Shown one piece after another: positions 1 through 9,450 of a stretch of DNA of 9,450 nt (the stretch's first letter is position 1; each line of letters starts with the position of its first letter). Below the pieces are notes generated by a model. It was not told where the DNA came from. It did not search any database and saw nothing but the letters and a program-made list of their open reading frames with translations. The position numbers and the translations under genes were made by a program. This DNA is from a virus (taxonomy: Duplodnaviria; Heunggongvirae; Uroviricota; Caudoviricetes). The DNA lies in IMG/VR virus record IMGVR_UViG_2711768034_000006, positions 1 through 9,450 of that record. One strand, given 5' to 3'.

Positions 1-3
1 ACG

Positions 4-228
4 TTACGGGCTGGCAAACGGCACGATTTCGGCTGATGCCACCTCCCTGGTGCGATAACTACACAGCAGGTTCCGCCCTAGCTTGACCAGTTCCTGCTGC
101 ACGCCTGGCAGCCGGTCGCGAGCATGGTCTACCGCTTCCTGTTCAGTGGCGAAACCCTCCATAATTTCGGTTTCGGTGTAGGTGCCGTGTTCCGGGTCAA
201 AAGCAATGATATATGCGCGATAACTCAT
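4..228 (-). CDS. Hypothetical small protein (74 aa), last gene of primase operon
   Basis: ATG at 228 preceded by GAGGG Shine-Dalgarno about 8 nt upstream; 10 nt after primase stop; followed (via wrap) by intrinsic terminator; no family recognised. Confidence 0.55.
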   Translation of the reverse strand: MSYRAYIIAFDPEHGTYTETEIMEGFATEQEAVDHARDRLPGVQQELVKLGRNLLCSYRTREVASAEIVPFASP

Positions 229-238
229 GGTTTAGCCC

Positions 239-2554
239 TCAGAACGGTTTATCTTCGCCGTCACCGGCTGTTTCTGTCATCACTTCCTGTGCGTCACACA
301 GGGGCGGCATACCTGCACGCGCCATCTGCGCTTCACGTGACTGCGATTTGCCGTCAGCGTTCAGCCATTTGGCCTTATTGCGCAGAATCCAGCAGCGGCT
401 TGCCTTGCCGTGAACCTTAATCGGCCCATCAATTTGCAGCGCGCCAGCTTCTTCCATTGCGCGGCGCATGGCAGGTGTGAAGCGGCTTTCTTCACCGTCT
501 GACAGCACATTTGCAATGTCACCTTGCGTGATAACGTCAACCGGCCATGACAGCACCAGGCGGTCAGCGTTCTTCTGCGTCATCGACTTCGCAGCGCCAA
601 TCACTGACTGTTTGGCCGCGTTCATCGGCGGGCGTTCGCCAGGGTTAAAGCTGCTTATGTCGCGCTCCGCCAGGAACACAGCCACAGCGTTGATAAACTC
701 GCGGTCGTTCAGCGCAGCATAGAGCGTGGCGTAAACTTCCTGCGGGCGCGGCTCTGCTTCGTGATGCACGATGCGCCAGCGGCGGTCTGTGTCGTCAATC
801 GGCAGCGCGTTAAGGTGGTTACTGAACACCAGCCAGCGCATGGCGTTGTGTTCACGGTGCTGGCGGCCATACTTCGGGTTCACGTCACGATATTCAGCCG
901 TAACGATGCTGCGCAGTTTGTTGGTGTGACTGTAGCGGTTTTCGCTCACCCCGGCCTGAATCTCGTCAACGATGGCCAGAACGCGCCCAGCTAACTGGCC
1001 GTTGAACTGGCTATCAAGCAGGTTAGGCAGGTCCACGTTCGGTGCCACATAGCCACGCCATACGCGCGCCAGGACGCTGGCCAGCCAGTTGCGGCCTGTG
1101 CCGGTTTTGTTGGCCACGTGCAGCCAGCCATAGTGCGGAAGTTCGCCTGGCTTCTGCTCCAGGTGTGCCAGCCAATCCAGGAATTTTTCGCGCTCTATGG
1201 CATCCGGGAATAGGTAGGCTACATGGTCCAGAAACAGGCTGATGCCTGTCGTGGCTTCTTTGCGTTCGAGCGGTCGCCAGGTGTTGATTGCAGGGCGTCC
1301 ATCCGGGTCACGGCAGAAGATGCCCGCGCCAGGGTGGAATGTCCGAGTGATAACCGTTTTGCGCTGCGGGTCTTGTTGCCACAGAACGGCGGTAGGCACC
1401 GGCTTTTTGCGCTCGTCGCTCAGTGTCATTGACGCTGACGTAAGCTGGCGGAATTCCTTCCAGGTCATAAACATTGTTGTGTCATTGACGCTGGCCACCA
1501 TTTCACCGCTTGCGATCCACACCATAGATTCCAGCATTTCTTCGCGGGACATCGACGGCGGCAGGATGCTGACTGTTTCCGGCTGTTGCAGGCGGGCGTT
1601 TTCTTCCTGCTGCAAACGGCGGCGGGTTTCTTCCGCCACGTCAACCACGCCACCAGCGCGCGCATTGTTAAGCGCAGCCAGGACCGCATCAGCACCTTGC
1701 TCCTGGTGCAAATCATTAACATCTTTGCCTTCTGCCAGGTCGGACGGCAGGGTGGCAACCGCAAAGCCAGTGCGGAAAGCGTCAGATTCTTTGCCACGGT
1801 CAGGGACTATGACCGGAACAGCACCAGCGGCCTTGATGATGTCGGCAGCCTTGCGGATGTTGCCAGCACCAAAGGAAACCACGGCAGCGCAGCCGGTGAC
1901 GGCGTTCACGCTCCAGGCGTGGCCGATACCTTCCACGATGTAGGCTTTCTGGCCTTTCTCCAGCTTTCCAGCCGTAAATGTGCCATCCATAGGGCAGCCA
2001 CTGGCGTTGCGCTTCTCTCCTTTGTTTGGCCCTACGAACTGTAAGGAAACCAGGTTTCCGCTTGATGACCAAACAGGGATTGCCAGCCAGCCTTTCAGGC
2101 TTTTGCTTCCGCTCCTGATGTCCTGCGTAACAACGCGCAGGCCGTCAGGCTTGCCCCACTTGCGCATGATGTACGGGTGTTCAGCGGTCGCAGGTTCTGA
2201 CGCAGCCCAAATGTCAATCGGGTTGTGTTTGGCTTTTGGCTTCTCAATAGGTGCCTTTTCCGCCCTGGCTGTTGGGTCATTCCACTGCGCCACGTTACGC
2301 GCCAGCCAGAACAGCGTGTTTTCAGTCACCGAACCGTCAATCTTAAAGCTACCCCAGGCGGAACGCACATCCGCTTCATTGCGGTAGTTGGTTGCGCCCT
2401 GGCTCCAGTTATGGAAGTCATCGAATGACAGGCCAGCAGCCTTTGCAGCGCAGCCAATGCGTGCCCAATCACGGCGTGAACAGTCGTTCGGCAGGGATTC
2501 CAGGGCGCTAAGTGCGCGCTCCATGTTGGTGATTTGGTCGTATGCCAGACTCAT
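239..2554 (-). CDS. Primase / SF3 helicase, phage P4 alpha-like replication initiator (771 aa)
   Basis: Long ORF; N-terminal Trp-rich region; DnaG/Toprim-like EGxxxA motif (IVEGIGHAW, aa 206-214); helicase-like region with Walker B-like LAIVDEIQ (aa 524-531) and SF3 motif C-like LVFSNH (aa 575-580); ATGA start/stop overlap with upstream orf77; GGGGG Shine-Dalgarno. Confidence 0.85.
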   Translation of the reverse strand: MSLAYDQITNMERALSALESLPNDCSRRDWARIGCAAKAAGLSFDDFHNWSQGATNYRNEADVRSAWGSFKIDGSVTENTLFWLARNVAQWNDPTARAEKAPIEKPKAKHNPIDIWAASEPATAEHPYIMRKWGKPDGLRVVTQDIRSGSKSLKGWLAIPVWSSSGNLVSLQFVGPNKGEKRNASGCPMDGTFTAGKLEKGQKAYIVEGIGHAWSVNAVTGCAAVVSFGAGNIRKAADIIKAAGAVPVIVPDRGKESDAFRTGFAVATLPSDLAEGKDVNDLHQEQGADAVLAALNNARAGGVVDVAEETRRRLQQEENARLQQPETVSILPPSMSREEMLESMVWIASGEMVASVNDTTMFMTWKEFRQLTSASMTLSDERKKPVPTAVLWQQDPQRKTVITRTFHPGAGIFCRDPDGRPAINTWRPLERKEATTGISLFLDHVAYLFPDAIEREKFLDWLAHLEQKPGELPHYGWLHVANKTGTGRNWLASVLARVWRGYVAPNVDLPNLLDSQFNGQLAGRVLAIVDEIQAGVSENRYSHTNKLRSIVTAEYRDVNPKYGRQHREHNAMRWLVFSNHLNALPIDDTDRRWRIVHHEAEPRPQEVYATLYAALNDREFINAVAVFLAERDISSFNPGERPPMNAAKQSVIGAAKSMTQKNADRLVLSWPVDVITQGDIANVLSDGEESRFTPAMRRAMEEAGALQIDGPIKVHGKASRCWILRNKAKWLNADGKSQSREAQMARAGMPPLCDAQEVMTETAGDGEDKPF

Positions 2555-3122: not shown

Positions 3123-3151
3123 TTGCTAAAGGTAAAGGTCTTTGCTAGTAT
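3123..3151 (+). promoter_or_regulatory. Candidate sigma70-like promoter on plus strand (TTGCTA-17-TAGTAT), antisense to operon leader
   Basis: Hexamers with 17-nt spacer read from sequence; 4/6 match each to consensus; lies about 40 nt upstream of a plus-strand terminator-like hairpin. Confidence 0.25.
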
Positions 3152-3188
3152 TTTTCCTAGTCAGGCCGCTAACCTAGACTTTCATTAA

Positions 3189-3229
3189 GCCCCCTGGATT
3201 GTTCGCGCAGTCCGGGGGTTTTCCTTTTT
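3189..3229 (+). terminator. Plus-strand intrinsic terminator-like hairpin (CCCCC..GGGGG stem) followed by TTTTCCTTTTT
   Basis: Five consecutive G-C pairs (3190-3194 with 3214-3218) then T-rich tract 3219-3229; no plus-strand CDS upstream, so it would end a short antisense RNA. Confidence 0.35.
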
Positions 3230-3252
3230 GTGGCGGTGTGCAAGCGCCACAA
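3228..3252. promoter_or_regulatory. Perfect 8-bp inverted repeat TTGTGGCG-N9-CGCCACAA at predicted transcription start of primase operon (operator candidate)
   Basis: Read directly; lies immediately downstream of the candidate -10 element; related ATTGTGGC motif recurs at 8163-8170 upstream of operon 2. Confidence 0.35.
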
Positions 3253-3257
3253 TTCGA

Positions 3258-3354: not shown

Positions 3355-3384
3355 CATAATCCCACATAATCCGGCATAATCGGT
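3355..3384. repeat. Three direct repeats of CATAATC at exact 10-bp spacing (3355, 3365, 3375)
   Basis: CATAATCCCA / CATAATCCGG / CATAATCGGT read directly; helical phasing suggests a protein-binding array; near-identical array at 8220-8249. Confidence 0.5.
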
Positions 3385-3457: not shown

Positions 3458-5734
3458 TTACGGTGCTGCTAATCCGTCATTCATCATGCTACGATTTCGG
3501 ATTCCTTGCTGCTGTTTCAGCTTCTGCGCCACCTTATTTGCCAGCGCATCTTCATTCATGCCAGGCTCGGCCTTCACGTTGATGGTGTACTGGTCGTTCG
3601 TGTTCACCGTTGTGTTGCCGGTGCGGTTAGCCAGTGCCGGTGAAGGCAAGGACGCACCAGGGGCGGCGGTCGCTGCTGGCTGGCTGCTTTCGTCTTCACC
3701 GAACGGATTGCTAAAGAAATCTTTGGTTTTCTGCCACGCACCACCAGCAACATCAGACACGGCGTTTTTAAACTCCAGTGCCTTGTTGGTCAGGTTGCCG
3801 ATGTTGTCAGACACCCACAGAATCTTATCAATCAGGAACGTGATCGGTGCGGTCACAAGCTCGATGCCAGCCGCCAGGGTCTTACCGAACGTCATCCCCA
3901 TTTTACCGGCCTTATCCAGTTCCTCGCCGCTGTATTTGACCGGTTCGGTCAGTGACGTGAACCAGTTGAAAACCGTCTTAACCGCAGCACCCACACCATC
4001 AATGACAGGTTTCAGCGGCCCCATGCGTTCATAAAGGCGGCTCAGAGCTTCGCTAAGCGGTTCCAGCCCGGATTTGATGCCTTCACCCACTCCGCCAAAG
4101 AAAGCCTTCACACCGGCCCAATGGCGGTAAATCTGATAACCTGCCAGCGCCAGGCCAGCTACGGCAGCACCCACGCCAGTGGATATGAACGCCGCACCAA
4201 CGGCACGAATGCCGGTAGCCACCGCAGGCAGGCCACGGGTGCTGGCCAGAACGGCAGATGCGTTCATGCGGGCAAACAGGCTGGACATCTGCAACACGCC
4301 ACCTTTCAGGAACGTGAACGCAAAGCCAGCGGCGAACGTCGCCACACGTAGTGCCACCAGTGCACTGGAACCAATAACCACTGCTTTGGTCACGGTAGGG
4401 TATTCGCGCGCCAGTTCGGCAACCTTGCCGATAACCGGGCCAACGGTAGCCAGAACGCCGTTGAATGCTGGCAGCAGCACTGTGCCGATCGTGACGCCCA
4501 GGTTAGACACACGGTTGTTGAAAATCTTAAGCTGTGCCGACGTTTTGGCGGTGGCTGCCTCATATTCAGCCTGCATAGAACCGGCATATTTGGTCTTGTC
4601 TTTGACCATGTCCAGATTCTTTTGGTACGTATCAAGCTGTGTCAGCATTGGTGCGATAGCGCCAATCGATTCCTTACCAAACAGTTGCGAAAGCGTTGCC
4701 GCCTGCATGTGTTTTGGCAGCTTGCTGATCTTGGACAGGATGACGCGGATTGTTTCATCGGCGTTCAGTTGCATTGATTTTGCAACCTGCTTGGATGTGA
4801 AGCCAAGCTGTTTAAACGCTTCACGCTGTGACTTCGTGGCGGATGCGCCAGCGGTCAGGGATAGCAGCAGGTTTTTAATACCGGTGGCCGCAATCTCATT
4901 CTGCACGCCCATACCGCGCAGCGTTGCACCCATCGCAGCGATAGAACCGGAAGCTGCACCAGCGACGCTGCCAAGCGGCCCGATGCGCTGCGTGATTTCC
5001 AGGATGTCTTTGGCTGATGCGGCGGTGTTGTTGCCCAGGTAGTTGATCTTGTCAGCCAGAACGTTCATCTGGTCCTGCGTCATCCCGAAGGCGGCGCGCA
5101 TCTCTGCCATTGCCTGGCCTGCCTGGTCGGCGCTGACGTCAAAAGCCACACCCATTTTGATGGCCGATTCAGCAAACTTGGTTAGTTCGCTGGTGGCGAT
5201 GCCTGATTGAGCACCAGCGGCAACAATCTTGCCGATTTCGTTGGCTGCCATCGGCATTTTGGTTGACATATCCTGGATAGCCTGGCCCATCTTAACCAGG
5301 CCGTCAGGGGTTTCGAAGTTGGCAACCTTGCGGATATCTGCCAGCGTATCTTCAAAATCCATAGCCTGTTTGATCGGTACAGCTACCGTTGCGCCAAGTG
5401 CGACAGTCCCCAGGATTCCTTCTTTGTAGCCTTGACGCTTCGCCAGGTTGCGTTCGCGGGCATCCTCCACGCGTTTCAGGCGTTCGGTGGCAGAACGAAG
5501 GCGTTCAACCTGCCCGACAACCGTTTGATAGCGGTCCTTCATGCGGGAGAATATCGCGCTATCCTGGCCATAACGCTTCATTGCTTCATTTAACTGGCGC
5601 TGTTCGCGCGACAGCTTAGAGATTGCGCTACCAATCTCGACGGTATTTTTCTTTACAGTTCCAAATGCACCACGAAGGCTGCCGGAAACGGCCCCACCAA
5701 TCGTGATTTTTGCATTTAACTTCTTGTTGGCCAT
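3458..5734 (-). CDS. Phage tail tape-measure protein-like (758 aa)
   Basis: Coiled-coil, A/G/Q-rich N-terminal half typical of tape-measure core regions; long central hydrophobic Gly/Ala-rich segment (about aa 440-540); size typical of siphovirus tape-measure proteins; ATG at 5734. Confidence 0.75.
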   Translation of the reverse strand: MANKKLNAKITIGGAVSGSLRGAFGTVKKNTVEIGSAISKLSREQRQLNEAMKRYGQDSAIFSRMKDRYQTVVGQVERLRSATERLKRVEDARERNLAKRQGYKEGILGTVALGATVAVPIKQAMDFEDTLADIRKVANFETPDGLVKMGQAIQDMSTKMPMAANEIGKIVAAGAQSGIATSELTKFAESAIKMGVAFDVSADQAGQAMAEMRAAFGMTQDQMNVLADKINYLGNNTAASAKDILEITQRIGPLGSVAGAASGSIAAMGATLRGMGVQNEIAATGIKNLLLSLTAGASATKSQREAFKQLGFTSKQVAKSMQLNADETIRVILSKISKLPKHMQAATLSQLFGKESIGAIAPMLTQLDTYQKNLDMVKDKTKYAGSMQAEYEAATAKTSAQLKIFNNRVSNLGVTIGTVLLPAFNGVLATVGPVIGKVAELAREYPTVTKAVVIGSSALVALRVATFAAGFAFTFLKGGVLQMSSLFARMNASAVLASTRGLPAVATGIRAVGAAFISTGVGAAVAGLALAGYQIYRHWAGVKAFFGGVGEGIKSGLEPLSEALSRLYERMGPLKPVIDGVGAAVKTVFNWFTSLTEPVKYSGEELDKAGKMGMTFGKTLAAGIELVTAPITFLIDKILWVSDNIGNLTNKALEFKNAVSDVAGGAWQKTKDFFSNPFGEDESSQPAATAAPGASLPSPALANRTGNTTVNTNDQYTINVKAEPGMNEDALANKVAQKLKQQQGIRNRSMMNDGLAAP

Positions 5735-6501: not shown

Positions 6502-6715
6502 AGTATTGGCCGCTAACAATAGTTGTTGATGATTAAGTGAGTGCGCGCTTTTAGGTGACAGGTGCGGCGCAACCGGTGTGGAATTAGTGGTGGTTTTGAC
6601 CGTCCAGGATGACCACCAACCTGGTTCCAGCATCCATCGTCTGAGGAACGATGAAGGTTAAATTTGGCCGGTTATTTTGGGCACAGGGAACCGGTGAAAC
6701 CTGTATTCTTGGCCA

Positions 6716-6880
6716 TTATTTGCCGTTCAGCCCGCTACTCAGAAACTTTTCAATCACCTGGCTGCGTGAAGGGCGGATGCCTGTTCTGCGTTCCAGTTTG
6801 GCTTGCTCTCTTTCGACCTGGCGCACCAGGTCAGGGGCGAGGCGTACCGTTACGTGCTGGCGTGTTTCTTGTCGTTTCAT
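6716..6880 (-). CDS. Ribbon-helix-helix (Arc/CopG-like) DNA-binding protein, 54 aa
   Basis: My own translation of the minus strand: MKRQETRQHVTVRLAPDLVRQVEREQAKLERRTGIRPSRSQVIEKFLSSGLNGK; beta-strand/helix/helix pattern resembling Arc; below the ORF-track size cutoff; ATG 3 nt after orf104 stop. Confidence 0.7.
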   Translation of the reverse strand: MKRQETRQHVTVRLAPDLVRQVEREQAKLERRTGIRPSRSQVIEKFLSSGLNGK

Positions 6881-7200: not shown

Positions 7201-8085
7201 TCAAGCCTTCCAGAACATAGTTGAGTCAGGCACCAGTGCGGATGCGTTCACCCACACAACGATTTCAACGGCACCATTCAGCACGCGGCGGGCGGTGACG
7301 CGGATTTCATCATCCAGGGCAACGGCTGCATTGCCGAAAGCGCCAATGATTGTGCTGGAAGTCTGGCCGCTGATTTCAGCGCGTACACCGTAGGCACGCA
7401 GAACGCCGTCTTGCAGTTCCAGGCCGGTGCAATCACCGCCAACAATGGCTTTAACTTCATCAAAGCGCAGGTTTTTGGCTGCAATCTTCTGCGCCACTGC
7501 GGTGAATGACGGGCTGGTAAGGGTTTCCGCTGCGCTTTCCAGGTGGTTCAGCAGCACGAAGTCAGCCAGATCGGCAATACCGCGTTCAATGGCGGTGTTG
7601 ACCGCTTCCAGCACTGTATCGTCAGCGAATTCGTGTTTCAGTTGCTGGCGGGTCAGGGTGTAGCCAACGCCGTAAGCCGGTGCGGTGTTGTGGTCGAATG
7701 CTGCAACCATGTACGGCTTGCCGCTCATGCTGATTTCTTCGCCGTCAGTAACTTTGGCGAACGCACCAGGGCGGATGACAACGAAGCGGTCAGCCACTTC
7801 GAGGCCAGTCGTTGCACCAGTCTGGCCAGTCGGCTGCGTGGTCATCGGGCCAGGAATGCGGATGATTTCAGCGCCTGCCTGTGCCACCAGCGAACGTTCA
7901 GCCAGAACAGCGTTGAAGGTGGTCTGCTTGCCACCTTTCGGGGTCAGCACGTCATTCATGGACAGGTAGCGAACTGCTGCCGGTTCCATAGGGATAAATT
8001 GAGTAATATCACCGTTGCCATCAGTGCGAACATGGCCGCCCTGGTGGTTCAACGCGTCGTTGATAAGTTGAGATAAAACGTTCAT
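7201..8085 (-). CDS. Beta-rich structural-like protein of unknown family (294 aa), first gene of operon 2
   Basis: ORF-track start at 8169 is TTG with a non-protein-like leader; ATG at 8085 has GGAG 8-9 nt upstream; A/G/T/V-rich composition like capsid or tail proteins; no motif recognised. Confidence 0.65.
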   Translation of the reverse strand: MNVLSQLINDALNHQGGHVRTDGNGDITQFIPMEPAAVRYLSMNDVLTPKGGKQTTFNAVLAERSLVAQAGAEIIRIPGPMTTQPTGQTGATTGLEVADRFVVIRPGAFAKVTDGEEISMSGKPYMVAAFDHNTAPAYGVGYTLTRQQLKHEFADDTVLEAVNTAIERGIADLADFVLLNHLESAAETLTSPSFTAVAQKIAAKNLRFDEVKAIVGGDCTGLELQDGVLRAYGVRAEISGQTSSTIIGAFGNAAVALDDEIRVTARRVLNGAVEIVVWVNASALVPDSTMFWKA

Positions 8086-8219
8086 TAAAAATGCTCCGGT
8101 TGTTGTGCAATAAATCGTCTGGAATGACTTAAAGATATACAGTAACCAGACCGAACACAATAGCCACAATGTGAGCTTTTTAATGTAAAATCAGTAACTT
8201 ATAACCCTGAATACTTGCA

Positions 8220-8249
8220 AATAACCAGGCATAATCCGGCGTAATCGAT
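8220..8249. repeat. Second copy of the phased 10-bp repeat array (AATAACCAGG / CATAATCCGG / CGTAATCGAT) upstream of operon 2
   Basis: Shares the 17-mer CATAATCCGGC[A/G]TAATCG with 3365-3381. Confidence 0.45.
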
Positions 8250-8379
8250 ATTTACACATCTTTACAATTCAGCATGTGTAAAACGTGTTCGCTTTATTTT
8301 GCAATCGCGCACGTATGGTGCCAGTGCTTTGATAAGGTTCACATAAATGATTGATTTACTTGACGTAATCATAAAGTGA

Positions 8380-8570
8380 GTTTTGGAGGGGCACGCACAA
8401 CGCGAATTACGCGGGACCAATGCCCCCGCCCTGTACTGCCGCCGAGGAGGACCCTTCGATTTTTGAGGCAGGCAGGCGGCCAGGCGGTGCGCGCAAGGTC
8501 CATTATGTTAAATCGCGGAGTTTGCAGGCAGAAAGAAGCACCAGGAAGGTGCTGGCAGGCGAACGGCGCA
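8380..8570. other. GC-rich non-coding island with nested short hairpins (candidate cos/pac site or structured RNA)
   Basis: Abrupt GC-rich stretch inside an AT-rich intergenic region; inverted repeats GGGGCA/TGCCCC (8388-8426), CGCG-aatta-CGCG (8401-8413), AGCACC-aggaa-GGTGCT (8537-8553); both overlapping ORFs translate to non-protein-like sequence. Confidence 0.3.
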
Positions 8571-9065
8571 TAATCTGACATATTCCGCGCGCTTTCAGCC
8601 CGTATTCACTCAGGCTTATTGTTGCGATATGTGCAACGTTCTGGCTGTTTACTGAACAGCTACTGTTTGAACGCAAAACAAGGCTGAAAGGCTCGTTTCC
8701 TGTAGTTACATCATACTTCTGTATGTTGTACCTATTCCGGCTGCTGCTTTGGTTAGACGTGAAAAAGCGTGGTTACGAATGAGCGGACCACCACCAGCAC
8801 CCATGCCGCCCAGGCACCCCATCCGGTTACAACGCTGAATTGAGTTGTAACCGTGTTATGTTTCTGAAAAATAACAAATTTCGTGCAATCGGTTACAACG
8901 GTTACGCCAAGTTCATAAAGTTTGGAAAAAGCACTATGGGTATATAGGAATATACGAATTTCTTTTTTTTACTAATCTGTTGTAACCATTGTAACCGGAA
9001 TGGGTAAAATCATTAATATTCAGTGGCTTGCGTGGTTACAACGCCGGTTACAACACCGATTTTGC

Positions 9066-9092
9066 GTTGTAACCGTTGTAACCGTTGTAACC
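9066..9092. repeat. Three perfect tandem copies of GTTGTAACC
   Basis: Read directly. Confidence 0.9.
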
Positions 9093-9103
9093 GTAGTAGG
9101 CAT

Positions 9104-9129
9104 AAAAAAGCCCCGGCAGATGCCAGGGC
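9104..9129 (-). terminator. Intrinsic terminator ending the primase operon
   Basis: Minus-strand RNA GCCCUGGC-AUCU-GCCGGGGC (8-bp stem with one G-U, 4-nt loop) followed by UUUUUU, 25 nt after orf74 stop. Confidence 0.55.
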
Positions 9130-9151: not shown

Positions 9152-9450
9152 ACGTTACGGGCTGGCAAACGGCACGATTTCGGCTGATGCCACCTCCCTG
9201 GTGCGATAACTACACAGCAGGTTCCGCCCTAGCTTGACCAGTTCCTGCTGCACGCCTGGCAGCCGGTCGCGAGCATGGTCTACCGCTTCCTGTTCAGTGG
9301 CGAAACCCTCCATAATTTCGGTTTCGGTGTAGGTGCCGTGTTCCGGGTCAAAAGCAATGATATATGCGCGATAACTCATGGTTTAGCCCTCAGAACGGTT
9401 TATCTTCGCCGTCACCGGCTGTTTCTGTCATCACTTCCTGTGCGTCACAC
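9152..9450. repeat. Wrap-around duplicate of window positions 1-299
   Basis: Identical sequence; the ORF track lists the same 74-aa protein at 4..228 and 9155..9379. Confidence 0.9.
9155..9379 (-). CDS. Second copy of the 74-aa hypothetical protein (same locus as 4..228 via wrap-around)
   Basis: Identical translation in ORF track. Confidence 0.55.
   Translation of the reverse strand: MSYRAYIIAFDPEHGTYTETEIMEGFATEQEAVDHARDRLPGVQQELVKLGRNLLCSYRTREVASAEIVPFASP

What the first reader, a model, noticed from the sequence alone, without database searches (positions are those of the whole stretch)
3355..3384. Same helically phased repeat array upstream of both operons
Three CATAATC repeats at exact 10-bp spacing lie upstream of the primase operon promoter, and a near-identical array lies at 8220-8249 upstream of operon 2. 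Both are followed by an ATTGTGGC motif (3246-3253 and 8163-8170). Shared upstream sites on both promoters imply one regulator coordinating replication and structural operons, possibly the RHH protein or a helper-encoded activator.
Basis: seen in the sequence. Interest (0 to 1): 0.6.

Follow-up and report, generated by a model that had tools for sequence, protein, structure and literature searches.

The report
Phased regulator sites before two satellite operons
Two arrays of a 7-bp repeat, one copy per DNA helix turn, sit at a fixed distance upstream of both promoters of a 9-kb plasmid-type phage satellite, and the same repeats occur in its likely helper phages, so they are probably docking sites for an excisionase-like regulator that this plasmid no longer encodes and may get from the helper.

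Summary
The repeats are real and far beyond chance. On the transcribed (minus) strand they read GATTATG x3 (3381-3355) and GATTACG/GATTATG/GGTTATT (8246-8220), at an exact 10-bp period. The window is a circular 9,151-bp plasmid-type phage satellite encoding a primase, its own capsid protein and a tape measure protein, and carrying a Jilinvirus cos site.

Both arrays recur in relatives with only 41-73% capsid identity, including a Pseudomonas element. Repeat unit 3 starts 66 bp before the -35 hexamer in eight of nine lineage-by-region cases. The window's primase region has 76 bp, from an exact 10-bp insertion.

The same word family (RRTKAH, 10-bp period only) occurs 4-5 times in each of three Jilinvirus-type phages, at orthologous non-coding sites (expected 0.01). 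These phages and several satellite relatives encode a small HTH_17 protein that folds like the excisionase RdfS. In the window that gene is deleted. The probable RHH protein does not track the arrays and is absent from the phages.

Best reading, by analogy with P2 Cox and P4: docking sites for this excisionase-like protein. Binding, the sign of regulation and the protein's source are all inferred.

The ATTGTGGC motif is not a shared site. It is near chance, and it occupies an mRNA 5' hairpin in one region and about -40/-45 in the other.

The parts
3355..3381 (-). Array A: three GATTATG units (3381-3375, 3371-3365, 3361-3355) at an exact 10-bp period, just downstream of the tape-measure terminator and about 100-130 bp upstream of the primase-operon start
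   Evidence: Conserved as AATTATG/RATTATG/GATGAAT in L010 and L012, GATGAAT/AGTTATT/GATGAAA in L018, and GATTAAG/GATTATC/GGTTATA in L121
3258..3285 (-). Predicted sigma-70 promoter of the primase operon: TTGCAG (3285-3280), 16-nt spacer, TATCAT (3263-3258). Unit 3 start to -35 start is 76 bp
   Evidence: Read. TTGCAG is conserved in L010, L012 and L018, where the offset is 66 bp; the window carries an exact 10-bp insertion. No transcript data
3229..3253 (-). Hairpin at the predicted 5' end of the primase mRNA (UUGUGGCG...CGCCACAA).
   Evidence: Fold. L010 and L012 keep a hairpin with a different sequence (GTGGCAGGG/CCCTACCAC; ATGGCC/GGCCAT), so the structure is conserved and the sequence is not
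8200..8246 (-). Array B: GATTACG (8246-8240), GATTATG (8236-8230), GGTTATT (8226-8220), then two further 10-bp frames, AAGTATT (8216-8210) and GGTTATA (8206-8200)
   Evidence: Conserved in L102, L006, L008, L010 and L012, with a variant in L017
8187..8199 (+). IHF-consensus-like site (AATCAGTAACTTA, WATCAR-N4-TTR) between array B and its promoter
   Evidence: Pattern match at the same offset (25 nt from unit 3) in window, L102, L006, L010 (perfect: TATCAAAGACTTA) and L012 (alignment). This is a consensus match only
8132..8160 (-). Predicted sigma-70 promoter of the capsid-to-tape-measure operon: TTGTGT (8160-8155), 17-nt spacer, TATCTT (8137-8132). Unit 3 start to -35 start is 66 bp
   Evidence: Read. 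Conserved as TTGTGT-17-TATCAT (L010), TTGTAT-16-TATTCT (L012) and TTGTGT-16-TATTCT (L017). Offset of 66 bp in five loci. No transcript data
8163..8170 (-). It lies just upstream of the -35 hexamer, which is itself a second ATTGTG copy
   Evidence: Conserved in L010, L017 and partly L011, but not in L012
8732..8750 (-). Remnant (last ~19 nt with the stop codon) of the deleted HTH_17 / RdfS-like regulator gene
   Evidence: Alignment with the intact gene of L010 and the 5'-truncated copy of L102. tblastn finds no HTH_17 in the window
6716..6880 (-). 54-aa probable ribbon-helix-helix protein (MKRQETRQHVTVRLAPDL...), third gene of the capsid operon. This is the rival candidate binder
   Evidence: Sequence. 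The model has strand-helix-helix topology. The Foldseek search is not significant.
8392..8429 (+). cos-site homology to Jilinvirus phages, which identifies the helper type
   Evidence: 38 bp at 97% identity to ECO1230-10, ep3 and PT1 just upstream of terS, and at the record ends of Arya and ECOO78 (sequence)

Best explanation
The two arrays are cis-regulatory docking sites for a small excisionase-like winged-helix protein: Pfam HTH_17, RdfS/Xis/BldC fold, invariant GTLANWRS recognition motif. Proteins of this class bind head-to-tail, one protomer per helical turn.

The proposed mechanism is as follows. Three protomers load on the phased GRTTAYG units about 100-120 bp upstream of each transcription start. 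With the AT-rich, IHF-like spacer they form a bent nucleoprotein complex on one face of the helix. That complex modulates both sigma-70 promoters together: primase/replication, and capsid plus tape measure.

This plasmid has lost its own copy of the regulator gene. The protein would therefore have to come in trans. The most likely source is the early-operon homologue of an infecting Jilinvirus-type helper (Orf54 of ECO1230-10); a co-resident satellite is the alternative. I favour activation on helper infection, a logic like P2 Cox turning on P4 PLL.

Shown here: the arrays, their conservation, their fixed phased spacing, their presence in helper-type phages, and the distribution and fold of the proteins. 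Inferred: who binds, the source of the protein, and the sign of regulation.
For: 1. The arrays are far beyond chance, and the relaxed word RRTKAH x3 occurs only at period 10 among periods 6-17, with single stray hits at other periods.

2. Both arrays are kept in lineages with 41-73% capsid identity, while the spacer bases vary.

3. Unit 3 to -35 is 66 bp in region B of five loci and in region A of L010, L012 and L018. It is 76 bp in the window's region A through an exact 10-bp insertion. Helical phase is kept without sequence similarity between the two spacers.

4. ECO1230-10 has 4 phased arrays against 0.01 expected. ep3 has 5 and KA2-1 has 4, at orthologous non-coding sites with conserved units and variable spacers.

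5. These phages and the satellites L010, L012-14, L018 and L121 share an HTH_17 protein at 49-62% identity. GTLANWRS is invariant among nine database homologues and present as GTLANWRS/N in the locus and phage copies. The best sequence and fold match is the excisionase RdfS, followed by BldC and the GIsul2 excisionase.

6. Every locus carrying this gene has array A. In L102 the gene is 5'-truncated, and in the window it is almost entirely deleted.

7. Integrated relatives carry the same words in a 6-unit phased array next to the fis att core and in the alpA promoter (GGGTTATGAGATAACCC). Both are classical excisionase targets.

8. Class behaviour from the literature: RDF sites are direct repeats one helix turn apart (PMC7498355). 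Cox boxes are spaced 10-11 bp, and helper Cox activates P4 PLL (PMC3936717). RdfS binds attP and promoters as filaments (PMC11963761).
Against: - No binding data exist, so the link between protein and site is guilt by association.
- The window encodes no such protein, so the arrays could be orphaned in this lineage. Its members are more than 94% identical, which leaves too little time for decay to show.
- Array B also occurs in integrated islands (L006, L008). These have AlpA but not the L010-type HTH_17, so two different winged-helix proteins, or another factor, would have to read the same sites.
- L011 has a 90%-identical AlpA but no array B.
- In the phages the arrays lie within about 20-80 bp of gene starts, not 100-120 bp upstream. 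That geometry fits repression there, as with Cox at Pc or D29 Gp36 (PMC12266134), so activation in the satellite is uncertain.
- The relaxed word was chosen after seeing the satellite arrays. It was, however, tested independently on the phage genomes.
Confidence: 0.55

Rival explanations
1. The satellite's own 54-aa ribbon-helix-helix protein (6716-6880) binds the arrays, one dimer per turn as ParR or omega do. It would autoregulate the capsid operon and cross-regulate the primase operon.
For: It is the only recognisable small DNA-binding protein encoded in the window. It lies inside the operon headed by array B. The units are near-palindromic (GATTATC in L121), which suits a symmetric dimer. 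RHH proteins are known to bind tandem repeats (general knowledge of ParR, ParG and omega).
Against: - RHH presence does not track the arrays. L011 has the same beta-strand (RQHVTLRL) but no promoter arrays. L009 and L015 carry divergent homologues (33-40% identity) and also lack the arrays.
- L004 keeps an identical array A with an RHH only 40% identical.
- The helper-type phages have 4-5 arrays each but no RHH homologue.
- The RHH fold itself is only probable, since the Foldseek search is not significant.
Confidence: 0.15
2. A conserved host protein reads the arrays and ties satellite expression to host physiology. Candidates are a response regulator that binds tandem direct repeats (the CpxR or OmpR/PhoB type), or a nucleoid protein.
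For: The plasmid persists without any regulator gene of its own. The 10-bp direct repeats loosely resemble CpxR-type GTAAA-N5-GTAAA sites (own knowledge). An IHF-like site lies beside array B. The architecture is kept from Enterobacteria to Pseudomonas.
Against: - No known host consensus matches; DnaA, IHF, Fis, CRP, PhoB, PhoP, ArcA and MraZ were checked by eye.
- The 18.7 kb of E. coli chromosome flanking the island in L006 has no such array, whereas the island has three places.
- The words recur specifically in helper-type phages and at att and alpA sites of related islands. That points to a mobile-element factor.
Confidence: 0.12
3. The arrays have no present function in this plasmid. They would be relics of attP-arm or excisionase sites, or of a regulatory circuit that died when the HTH_17 gene was lost.
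For: The regulator gene is deleted here and truncated in L102. Similar phased words flank the att core in integrated relatives. All array-bearing plasmids without the gene are close relatives.
Against: The arrays and their 66-bp phased spacing are conserved across deep lineages in both regions. In the window lineage the only spacing change is an exact 10-bp insertion, which preserves phase. Helper phages supply a homologue of the lost protein.
Confidence: 0.1

Closest known systems
P2 Cox boxes upstream of the satellite P4 late promoter PLL (helper excisionase-type protein activating a satellite)
   Same: Small winged-helix RDF-type protein. Multiple short boxes spaced 10-11 bp, one protomer per helical turn. 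A helper-encoded protein acts on a promoter that drives the satellite's replication operon. The same protein also acts on the helper's own promoters (PMC3936717).
   Different: - The box sequence differs (TTAAAG/CNCA against GRTTAYG).
- Cox belongs to its own family rather than HTH_17.
- Cox sites hold six or more boxes in mixed orientation and protect about 70 bp; here there are three to five co-oriented units.
- Here two operons carry the array at the same 66-bp offset.
- Some satellites carry their own copy of the regulator.
- Binding here is untested.
Phage 186 Apl and ICEMlSymR7A RdfS: RDFs that double as transcription regulators
   Same: Direct repeats one helix turn apart at both att and promoter regions (PMC7498355). 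RdfS is the best sequence and fold match of the satellite/helper HTH_17 protein, and it binds attP and promoters as an oligomer (PMC11963761).
   Different: RdfS sites show no clear consensus, whereas here a clear 6-7 bp word is kept. The plasmid form has no integrase or att site, so the protein would act purely as a transcription or architecture factor. ECO1230-10 and ep3, which retain the protein, have no annotated integrase, whereas KA2-1 does.
BldC (Streptomyces) and mycobacteriophage D29 Gp36: minimal MerR-like proteins that bind direct repeats as cooperative multimers
   Same: Same fold class (BldC is rank 4). Head-to-tail binding to direct repeats (PMC5859096). D29 Gp36 is an excisionase-type protein kept by a lytic phage as a transcription regulator (PMC12266134).
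   Different: Different hosts and different repeat sequences. D29 Gp36 is a repressor. Neither system involves a satellite and its helper.
fis-integrating Gram-negative PICIs regulated by AlpA
   Same: Integrated twins of this plasmid sit at the fis att site with int-alpA-primase and the same capsid operon and array B (PMC10111431). AlpA is also a small winged-helix, excisionase-like regulator.
   Different: The window is an autonomous plasmid with no int or alpA. It has antisense-RNA-type copy control and carries a tape measure gene. Array A is found only in the plasmid forms.

Membership tests
RDF / Xis-type winged-helix operator array (Cox boxes, Apl sites) | Three or more short repeats in direct orientation, spaced one helical turn (10-11 bp) | tested here: met
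   Exact 10-bp period in both arrays. No enrichment at any other period
RDF / Xis-type winged-helix operator array (Cox boxes, Apl sites) | A cognate small winged-helix (Xis/HTH_17/MerR-like) protein is encoded by the element itself | tested here: not met
   No HTH_17 or AlpA in the window by tblastn. The gene is deleted, leaving a remnant at 8732-8750
RDF / Xis-type winged-helix operator array (Cox boxes, Apl sites) | A cognate protein is available from relatives or the helper, with the RDF fold | tested here: met
   HTH_17 is present in L010, L012-14, L018, L121 and in phages ECO1230-10, ep3 and KA2-1. Match to RdfS 8DGL: E 0.0012 by sequence, TM 0.70 and probability 1.0 by fold
RDF / Xis-type winged-helix operator array (Cox boxes, Apl sites) | The same repeats occur at att sites or the regulator's own promoter (dual use) | tested here: inconclusive
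   Phased AATTAT/GATGAA units lie beside the fis att core, and GGTTAT inverted repeats lie in the alpA promoter of L006 and L011. Which protein binds there is unknown
RDF / Xis-type winged-helix operator array (Cox boxes, Apl sites) | Demonstrated cooperative binding and footprint | not testable with these tools
   Needs EMSA or DNase I footprinting
Ribbon-helix-helix operator array (ParR / omega / Arc type) | An RHH protein is encoded next to tandem subsites that it autoregulates | tested here: inconclusive
   The 54-aa protein has strand-helix-helix topology. There is no significant fold or Pfam match
Ribbon-helix-helix operator array (ParR / omega / Arc type) | Protein and sites co-occur and co-vary across relatives | tested here: not met
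   The same beta-strand occurs in L011, which has no promoter arrays. Array A is identical in L004 with a 40%-identical RHH. The phages have arrays but no RHH
Replication-origin iterons | Repeats lie in the origin and co-vary with the initiator protein | tested here: not met
   Array A is identical in L004, which has a different (VapE-type, 28% identical) primase. A separate iteron set, GGTTACAAC at 8816-9105, changes to TGACACCT there
Sigma-54 enhancer (UAS - IHF - -24/-12 promoter) | TGGCAC-N5-TTGC promoter element downstream of the upstream sites | tested here: not met
   Region A has TGGCAA-N6-TTGCA, one base too long. Region B has none. Both were read

The most novel reading that the evidence does not exclude
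The arrays are a helper-sensing switch in an undescribed class of extrachromosomal satellites of Jilinvirus-type myophages that make their own capsid and tape measure proteins. Having discarded its own excisionase-like regulator, the plasmid stays quiet under antisense-RNA copy control. An infecting helper then expresses its early HTH_17 protein, which loads on both arrays and switches on replication and capsid/tape-measure synthesis together. The helper's own regulatory code is used against it.
Probability: 0.35. Interest if true: 0.75.

Novelty: new member of a known kind. Interest (0 to 1): 0.55.

Why it matters
If the reading is right, this gives a simple, testable wiring diagram for how a plasmid-borne satellite detects its helper: a 27-bp array, a fixed 66-bp phased spacer and one small helper protein.

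It would extend the P2 Cox / P4 logic to an unrelated helper group (Jilinvirus) and an unrelated satellite family. That family exists both as fis-integrated islands and as free 9-kb plasmids in E. coli, Salmonella, Proteus, Cronobacter and Pseudomonas.

It also flags these small "cryptic, non-mobilizable" plasmids as phage satellites. They carry their own capsid and tape measure genes, which matters for phage therapy with Jilinvirus-type phages and for plasmid annotation.

Tried and rejected
- **Arrays copied from a helper promoter.** No BLAST-detectable similarity of either regulatory region to any of 50,697 phage records apart from cos. Strict GRTTAYG triplets are absent from ECO1230-10. Only the relaxed word RRTKAH revealed the phage arrays.
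- **IMG/VR scan for triple GRTTAYG.** It returned 59 loci, all unrelated perfect 10-bp tandem iterons.
- **Species-representative genomes.** No relative of the capsid protein was found. The metagenome pattern scan gave one true relative, L102, among 43 chance hits.
- **Unit 3 as a surrogate -35** (unit 3 hexamer, 17 bp, then TATAAG or TTAAAT). This is geometrically consistent in seven enteric cases. I ranked it below the conserved downstream sigma-70 promoters at +66 because the would-be -10 overlaps the IHF-like site, lacks the -7 T and fails in L018.
- **ATTGTGGC as an operator.** Rejected.
- **Primase as the binder.** Rejected, because array A is identical in plasmids with different primases.
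- **Mor/C-like late activator of the helper.** Considered, but that family binds dyad sites (own knowledge) and the satellites carry no homologue.
- **Known RNA families.** None in the window.
- **Pfam, PHROGs and NCBIfam.** They give nothing for the 91-, 77-, 74-, 68- and 69-aa proteins. For the 106-aa protein there is only a sub-threshold P22_Cro hit.

Full report
**1. What the window is**

Bases 1-299 repeat exactly at 9152-9450, so the sequence is a circular 9,151-bp molecule. All convincing genes are on the minus strand.

- One operon runs 91 aa, 77 aa, a 771-aa primase (PriCT_2, Toprim, DUF5906) and 74 aa.
- A second operon runs from a 294-aa protein through 106 aa, 54 aa, 149 aa, 69 aa and 68 aa to a 758-aa tape measure protein (PF10145).
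- The 294-aa protein belongs to a major-capsid family. One source names a homologue as a capsid protein, and some homologues are fused to an HK97 prohead protease.

Near-identical molecules are small "non-mobilizable" plasmids of E. coli, Proteus and Salmonella. The same capsid-to-tape-measure operon also sits in E. coli chromosomes between fis and yhdJ, behind int-alpA-VapE. That is a fis-type PICI as described in PMC10111431.

Window 8392-8429 is 97% identical to a 38-bp non-coding stretch of Jilinvirus phages. In those phages it lies just upstream of terS, and in some records at the genome ends, so it is their cos site. Part of the tape measure gene is about 78% identical in DNA to theirs.

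The element is therefore a plasmid-type satellite of Jilinvirus-like myophages.

**2. The observation**

CATAATC occurs three times at an exact 10-bp spacing at 3355-3381. The window has 5 copies against 0.71 expected, and no shuffle out of 200 reaches 5.

The three-unit pattern finds only this place and 8221-8246, against 0.01 expected. The second array is 81% identical to the first and is degenerate.

On the transcribed strand:
- Array A reads GATTATG, GATTATG, GATTATG.
- Array B reads GATTACG, GATTATG, GGTTATT, followed in register by AAGTATT and GGTTATA.

ATTGTGGC is present at both stated coordinates. However, two copies is what 12% of shuffles give.

**3. Conservation and geometry**

I fetched divergent relatives through the capsid protein and a DNA pattern.

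| Feature | Loci that carry it | Source |
|---|---|---|
| Array B | L102, L006, L008, L010 (capsid 73% identical), L012-14 (68%); variant in L017 | |
| Array A | L004, L102, L010, L012-14, L121, L018 | |
| Both arrays | window group, L010, L012-14, L018 | |

- In arrays A and B, the TTA and TTAT cores are invariant while the spacer bases change.
- L018 is a Pseudomonas element with 41% capsid identity. It has an array in both regions, each followed by the palindrome GTTTAC-N4-GTAAAC.

Downstream of each array is a conserved sigma-70-like promoter.
- Primase operon: TTGCAG-16-TATCAT.
- Capsid operon: TTGTGT-17-TATCTT in the window, TTGTGT-17-TATCAT in L010, TTGTAT-16-TATTCT in L012.

The distance from the start of unit 3 to the start of the -35 hexamer is 66 bp in region B of five loci and in region A of L010, L012 and L018. 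It is 76 bp in the window's region A, because of one exact 10-bp insertion. L121 has 34 bp, which is still in phase at 10.5 bp per turn, provided TTGCAA is its -35.

The two spacers share no sequence similarity. The conserved property is therefore distance and helical face.

Region B also keeps an IHF-consensus-like site 25 nt after unit 3. The promoters and the IHF site are consensus readings, not transcript data.

**4. The ATTGTGGC motif**

In region A it is the 5' arm of a hairpin at the predicted mRNA start. L010 and L012 keep a hairpin there with different sequences.

In region B it lies just upstream of the -35 hexamer, which is itself a second ATTGTG copy. That block is conserved in some relatives but not in L012.

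The two copies are not equivalent, and I do not regard them as a shared site.

**5. Who binds the arrays**

*The primase is excluded.* L004 has an identical array A with a primase only 28% identical. A separate iteron set (GGTTACAAC, 8816-9105) changes along with the primase.

*The 54-aa protein is a probable ribbon-helix-helix protein*, although Foldseek gives no significant match. It is present in every family member that carries the capsid-to-tape-measure operon.
- L011 has the same beta-strand residues but no promoter arrays.
- L004 has an RHH only 40% identical but an identical array A.
- So the RHH does not track the arrays.

*A better candidate appeared in the relatives.* L010, L012-14, L018 and L121 encode a 65-89-aa HTH_17 protein between the origin and cos.
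- All of these loci have array A.
- The gene is 5'-truncated in L102, which is 97% identical to the window. In the window it is reduced to its last ~19 nt.
- Its closest solved relative, by sequence and by predicted fold, is the excisionase RdfS. BldC and a transposon excisionase follow.
- These proteins bind direct repeats head-to-tail, one per helical turn (PMC7498355, PMC3936717, PMC5859096, PMC11963761).
- The helper-type phage ECO1230-10 encodes a homologue, Orf54, at 49-62% identity.
- The temperate relative KA2-1 has the same gene, annotated as excisionase/transcriptional regulator.
- The motif GTLANWRS is invariant among nine database homologues. It is present as GTLANWRS in the L010, L012 and L018 copies and as GTLANWRN in phage Orf54.

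**6. The phages speak the same language**

I derived a relaxed word from the satellite arrays: RRTKAH three times at a 10-bp period. I then tested it on the phage genomes.

| Phage | Phased arrays found | Source |
|---|---|---|
| ECO1230-10 | 4 (0.01 expected; no shuffle of 100 reaches 4) | |
| ep3 | 5 | |
| KA2-1 | 4 | |

- Hits are concentrated at period 10: among periods 6-17, ECO1230-10 gives four hits at period 10, one at period 9 and none elsewhere; ep3 and KA2-1, scanned over periods 7-15, give one and two off-period hits respectively.
- Within-piece shuffles of the ECO1230-10 intergenic DNA give a mean of 0.002.
- The hits fall at orthologous non-coding places:
  - upstream of the leftward helicase gene, where the units are AATGAT / GATGAA / AATTAT and the spacers differ between phages;
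  - at the start of the late-activator gene;
  - between two tail-region genes;
  - just after the SSB stop codon.
- GATGAAT and AATTATG are also units of array A in L010 and L012.
- The phages have no homologue of the RHH protein.

Integrated relatives carry a six-unit phased array of the same words beside the fis att core. They also have a GGTTAT inverted repeat in the alpA promoter. The 18.7 kb of flanking chromosome has none.

**7. Mechanism proposed**

Three protomers of the excisionase-like protein would load on each array and bend the AT-rich spacer, possibly with IHF. They would then act on both promoters from the same helical face. This would couple the replication operon and the capsid/tape-measure operon.

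Because this plasmid lacks the gene, the protein would come from the helper's early operon. This parallels P2 Cox acting on P4 PLL (PMC3936717).

I favour activation, for three reasons:
- The sites are far upstream of the promoters.
- Losing an activator gives a quiet plasmid that still responds to its helper.
- Losing a repressor of capsid and tape measure synthesis should be costly.

Repression cannot be excluded. In the phages the arrays overlap gene starts, and D29 Gp36 and Cox at Pc are repressors (PMC12266134, PMC3936717).

**8. Limits**

- There are no binding data and no transcript data.
- The association rests on about six independent lineages.
- Array B also occurs in islands whose only winged-helix protein is AlpA.
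- The window-type plasmids are too closely related for their retention of the arrays to prove function.

Noticed in passing
window 1-299 and 9152-9450: An exact 299-bp terminal overlap shows the window is a circular 9,151-bp molecule. PLSDB holds near-identical 'non-mobilizable' plasmids from E. coli, Proteus and Salmonella, one of them a head-to-tail dimer of 17.4 kb (CP077066).
   Followed up: yes
window 3458-5734 (-) and 7201-8085 (-): The satellite encodes its own tape measure protein and major capsid protein. The tape measure is mosaic: only 63% identical between plasmids that are otherwise about 97% identical, and about 78% identical in DNA to Jilinvirus tape measures. I found no description of a satellite carrying a tape measure gene in the papers searched.
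   Followed up: partly
window 8392-8429: A 38-bp match (97%) to the cos region of Jilinvirus phages (ECO1230-10, ep3, PT1, Arya, ECOO78). This points to the helper group.
   Followed up: yes
window 3123-3229 (+): Candidate countertranscript against the primase leader. It has the promoter TTGCTA-17-TAGTAT (3123-3151), a ~73-nt RNA with two stem-loops (z = -3.6) and an intrinsic terminator at 3191-3228. The -10 is kept as far as the Pseudomonas relative. It looks like antisense copy-number control.
   Followed up: partly
window 6588-6624 (-); also L010, L011, L012 (two copies), L017: A hairpin CCAGG-loop-CCTGG whose loop (GGTGGT) is complementary to a stretch about 10 nt downstream (ACCACC). Loop and partner change together in five relatives, suggesting an RNA pseudoknot between the RHH gene and the next ORF. 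No Rfam match. The 149-aa ORF call in the window probably starts too early and runs over it.
   Followed up: partly
window 8816-9105: GGTTACAAC iterons in direct and inverted copies around an AT-rich stretch, probably the replication origin. The Salmonella plasmid L004, which has a VapE-type primase, carries TGACACCT iterons at the same place instead.
   Followed up: partly
window ~8430-8730: A non-coding block of about 300 bp, highly conserved with L010, L004 and L102 despite divergence elsewhere. It holds the lone fifth CATAATC (8569-8575; GGTTATG in L010). Its function is unknown; an accessory packaging site or an RNA are possibilities.
   Followed up: no
window 8250-8283: A perfect inverted repeat TTTACACAT-N15-ATGTGTAAA abuts array B. 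It is present in the window, L006 and L008 but absent from the close relative L102. L010, L012 and L017 have a different palindrome (TAGGA-ATAA-TCCTA) nearby.
   Followed up: partly
L004, L009, L011, L015, L121 (upstream of the capsid gene): An alternative 'type-2' capsid-operon upstream region without array B. It carries GACAAMCCCCAMGAAGAA and GCGTTTCCARTTTCCAA motifs, so the promoter module is exchanged between otherwise similar elements.
   Followed up: partly
L006 18773-18830 (+); L011 98-40 (-): Integrated fis-site relatives have a six-unit, 10-bp-phased array alternating AATTAT and GATGAA/AGTGAT, directly beside the att core TACGGCATGAACTAA. These are probably excisionase or integrase-arm sites, and they use the same words as the promoter arrays.
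   Followed up: partly
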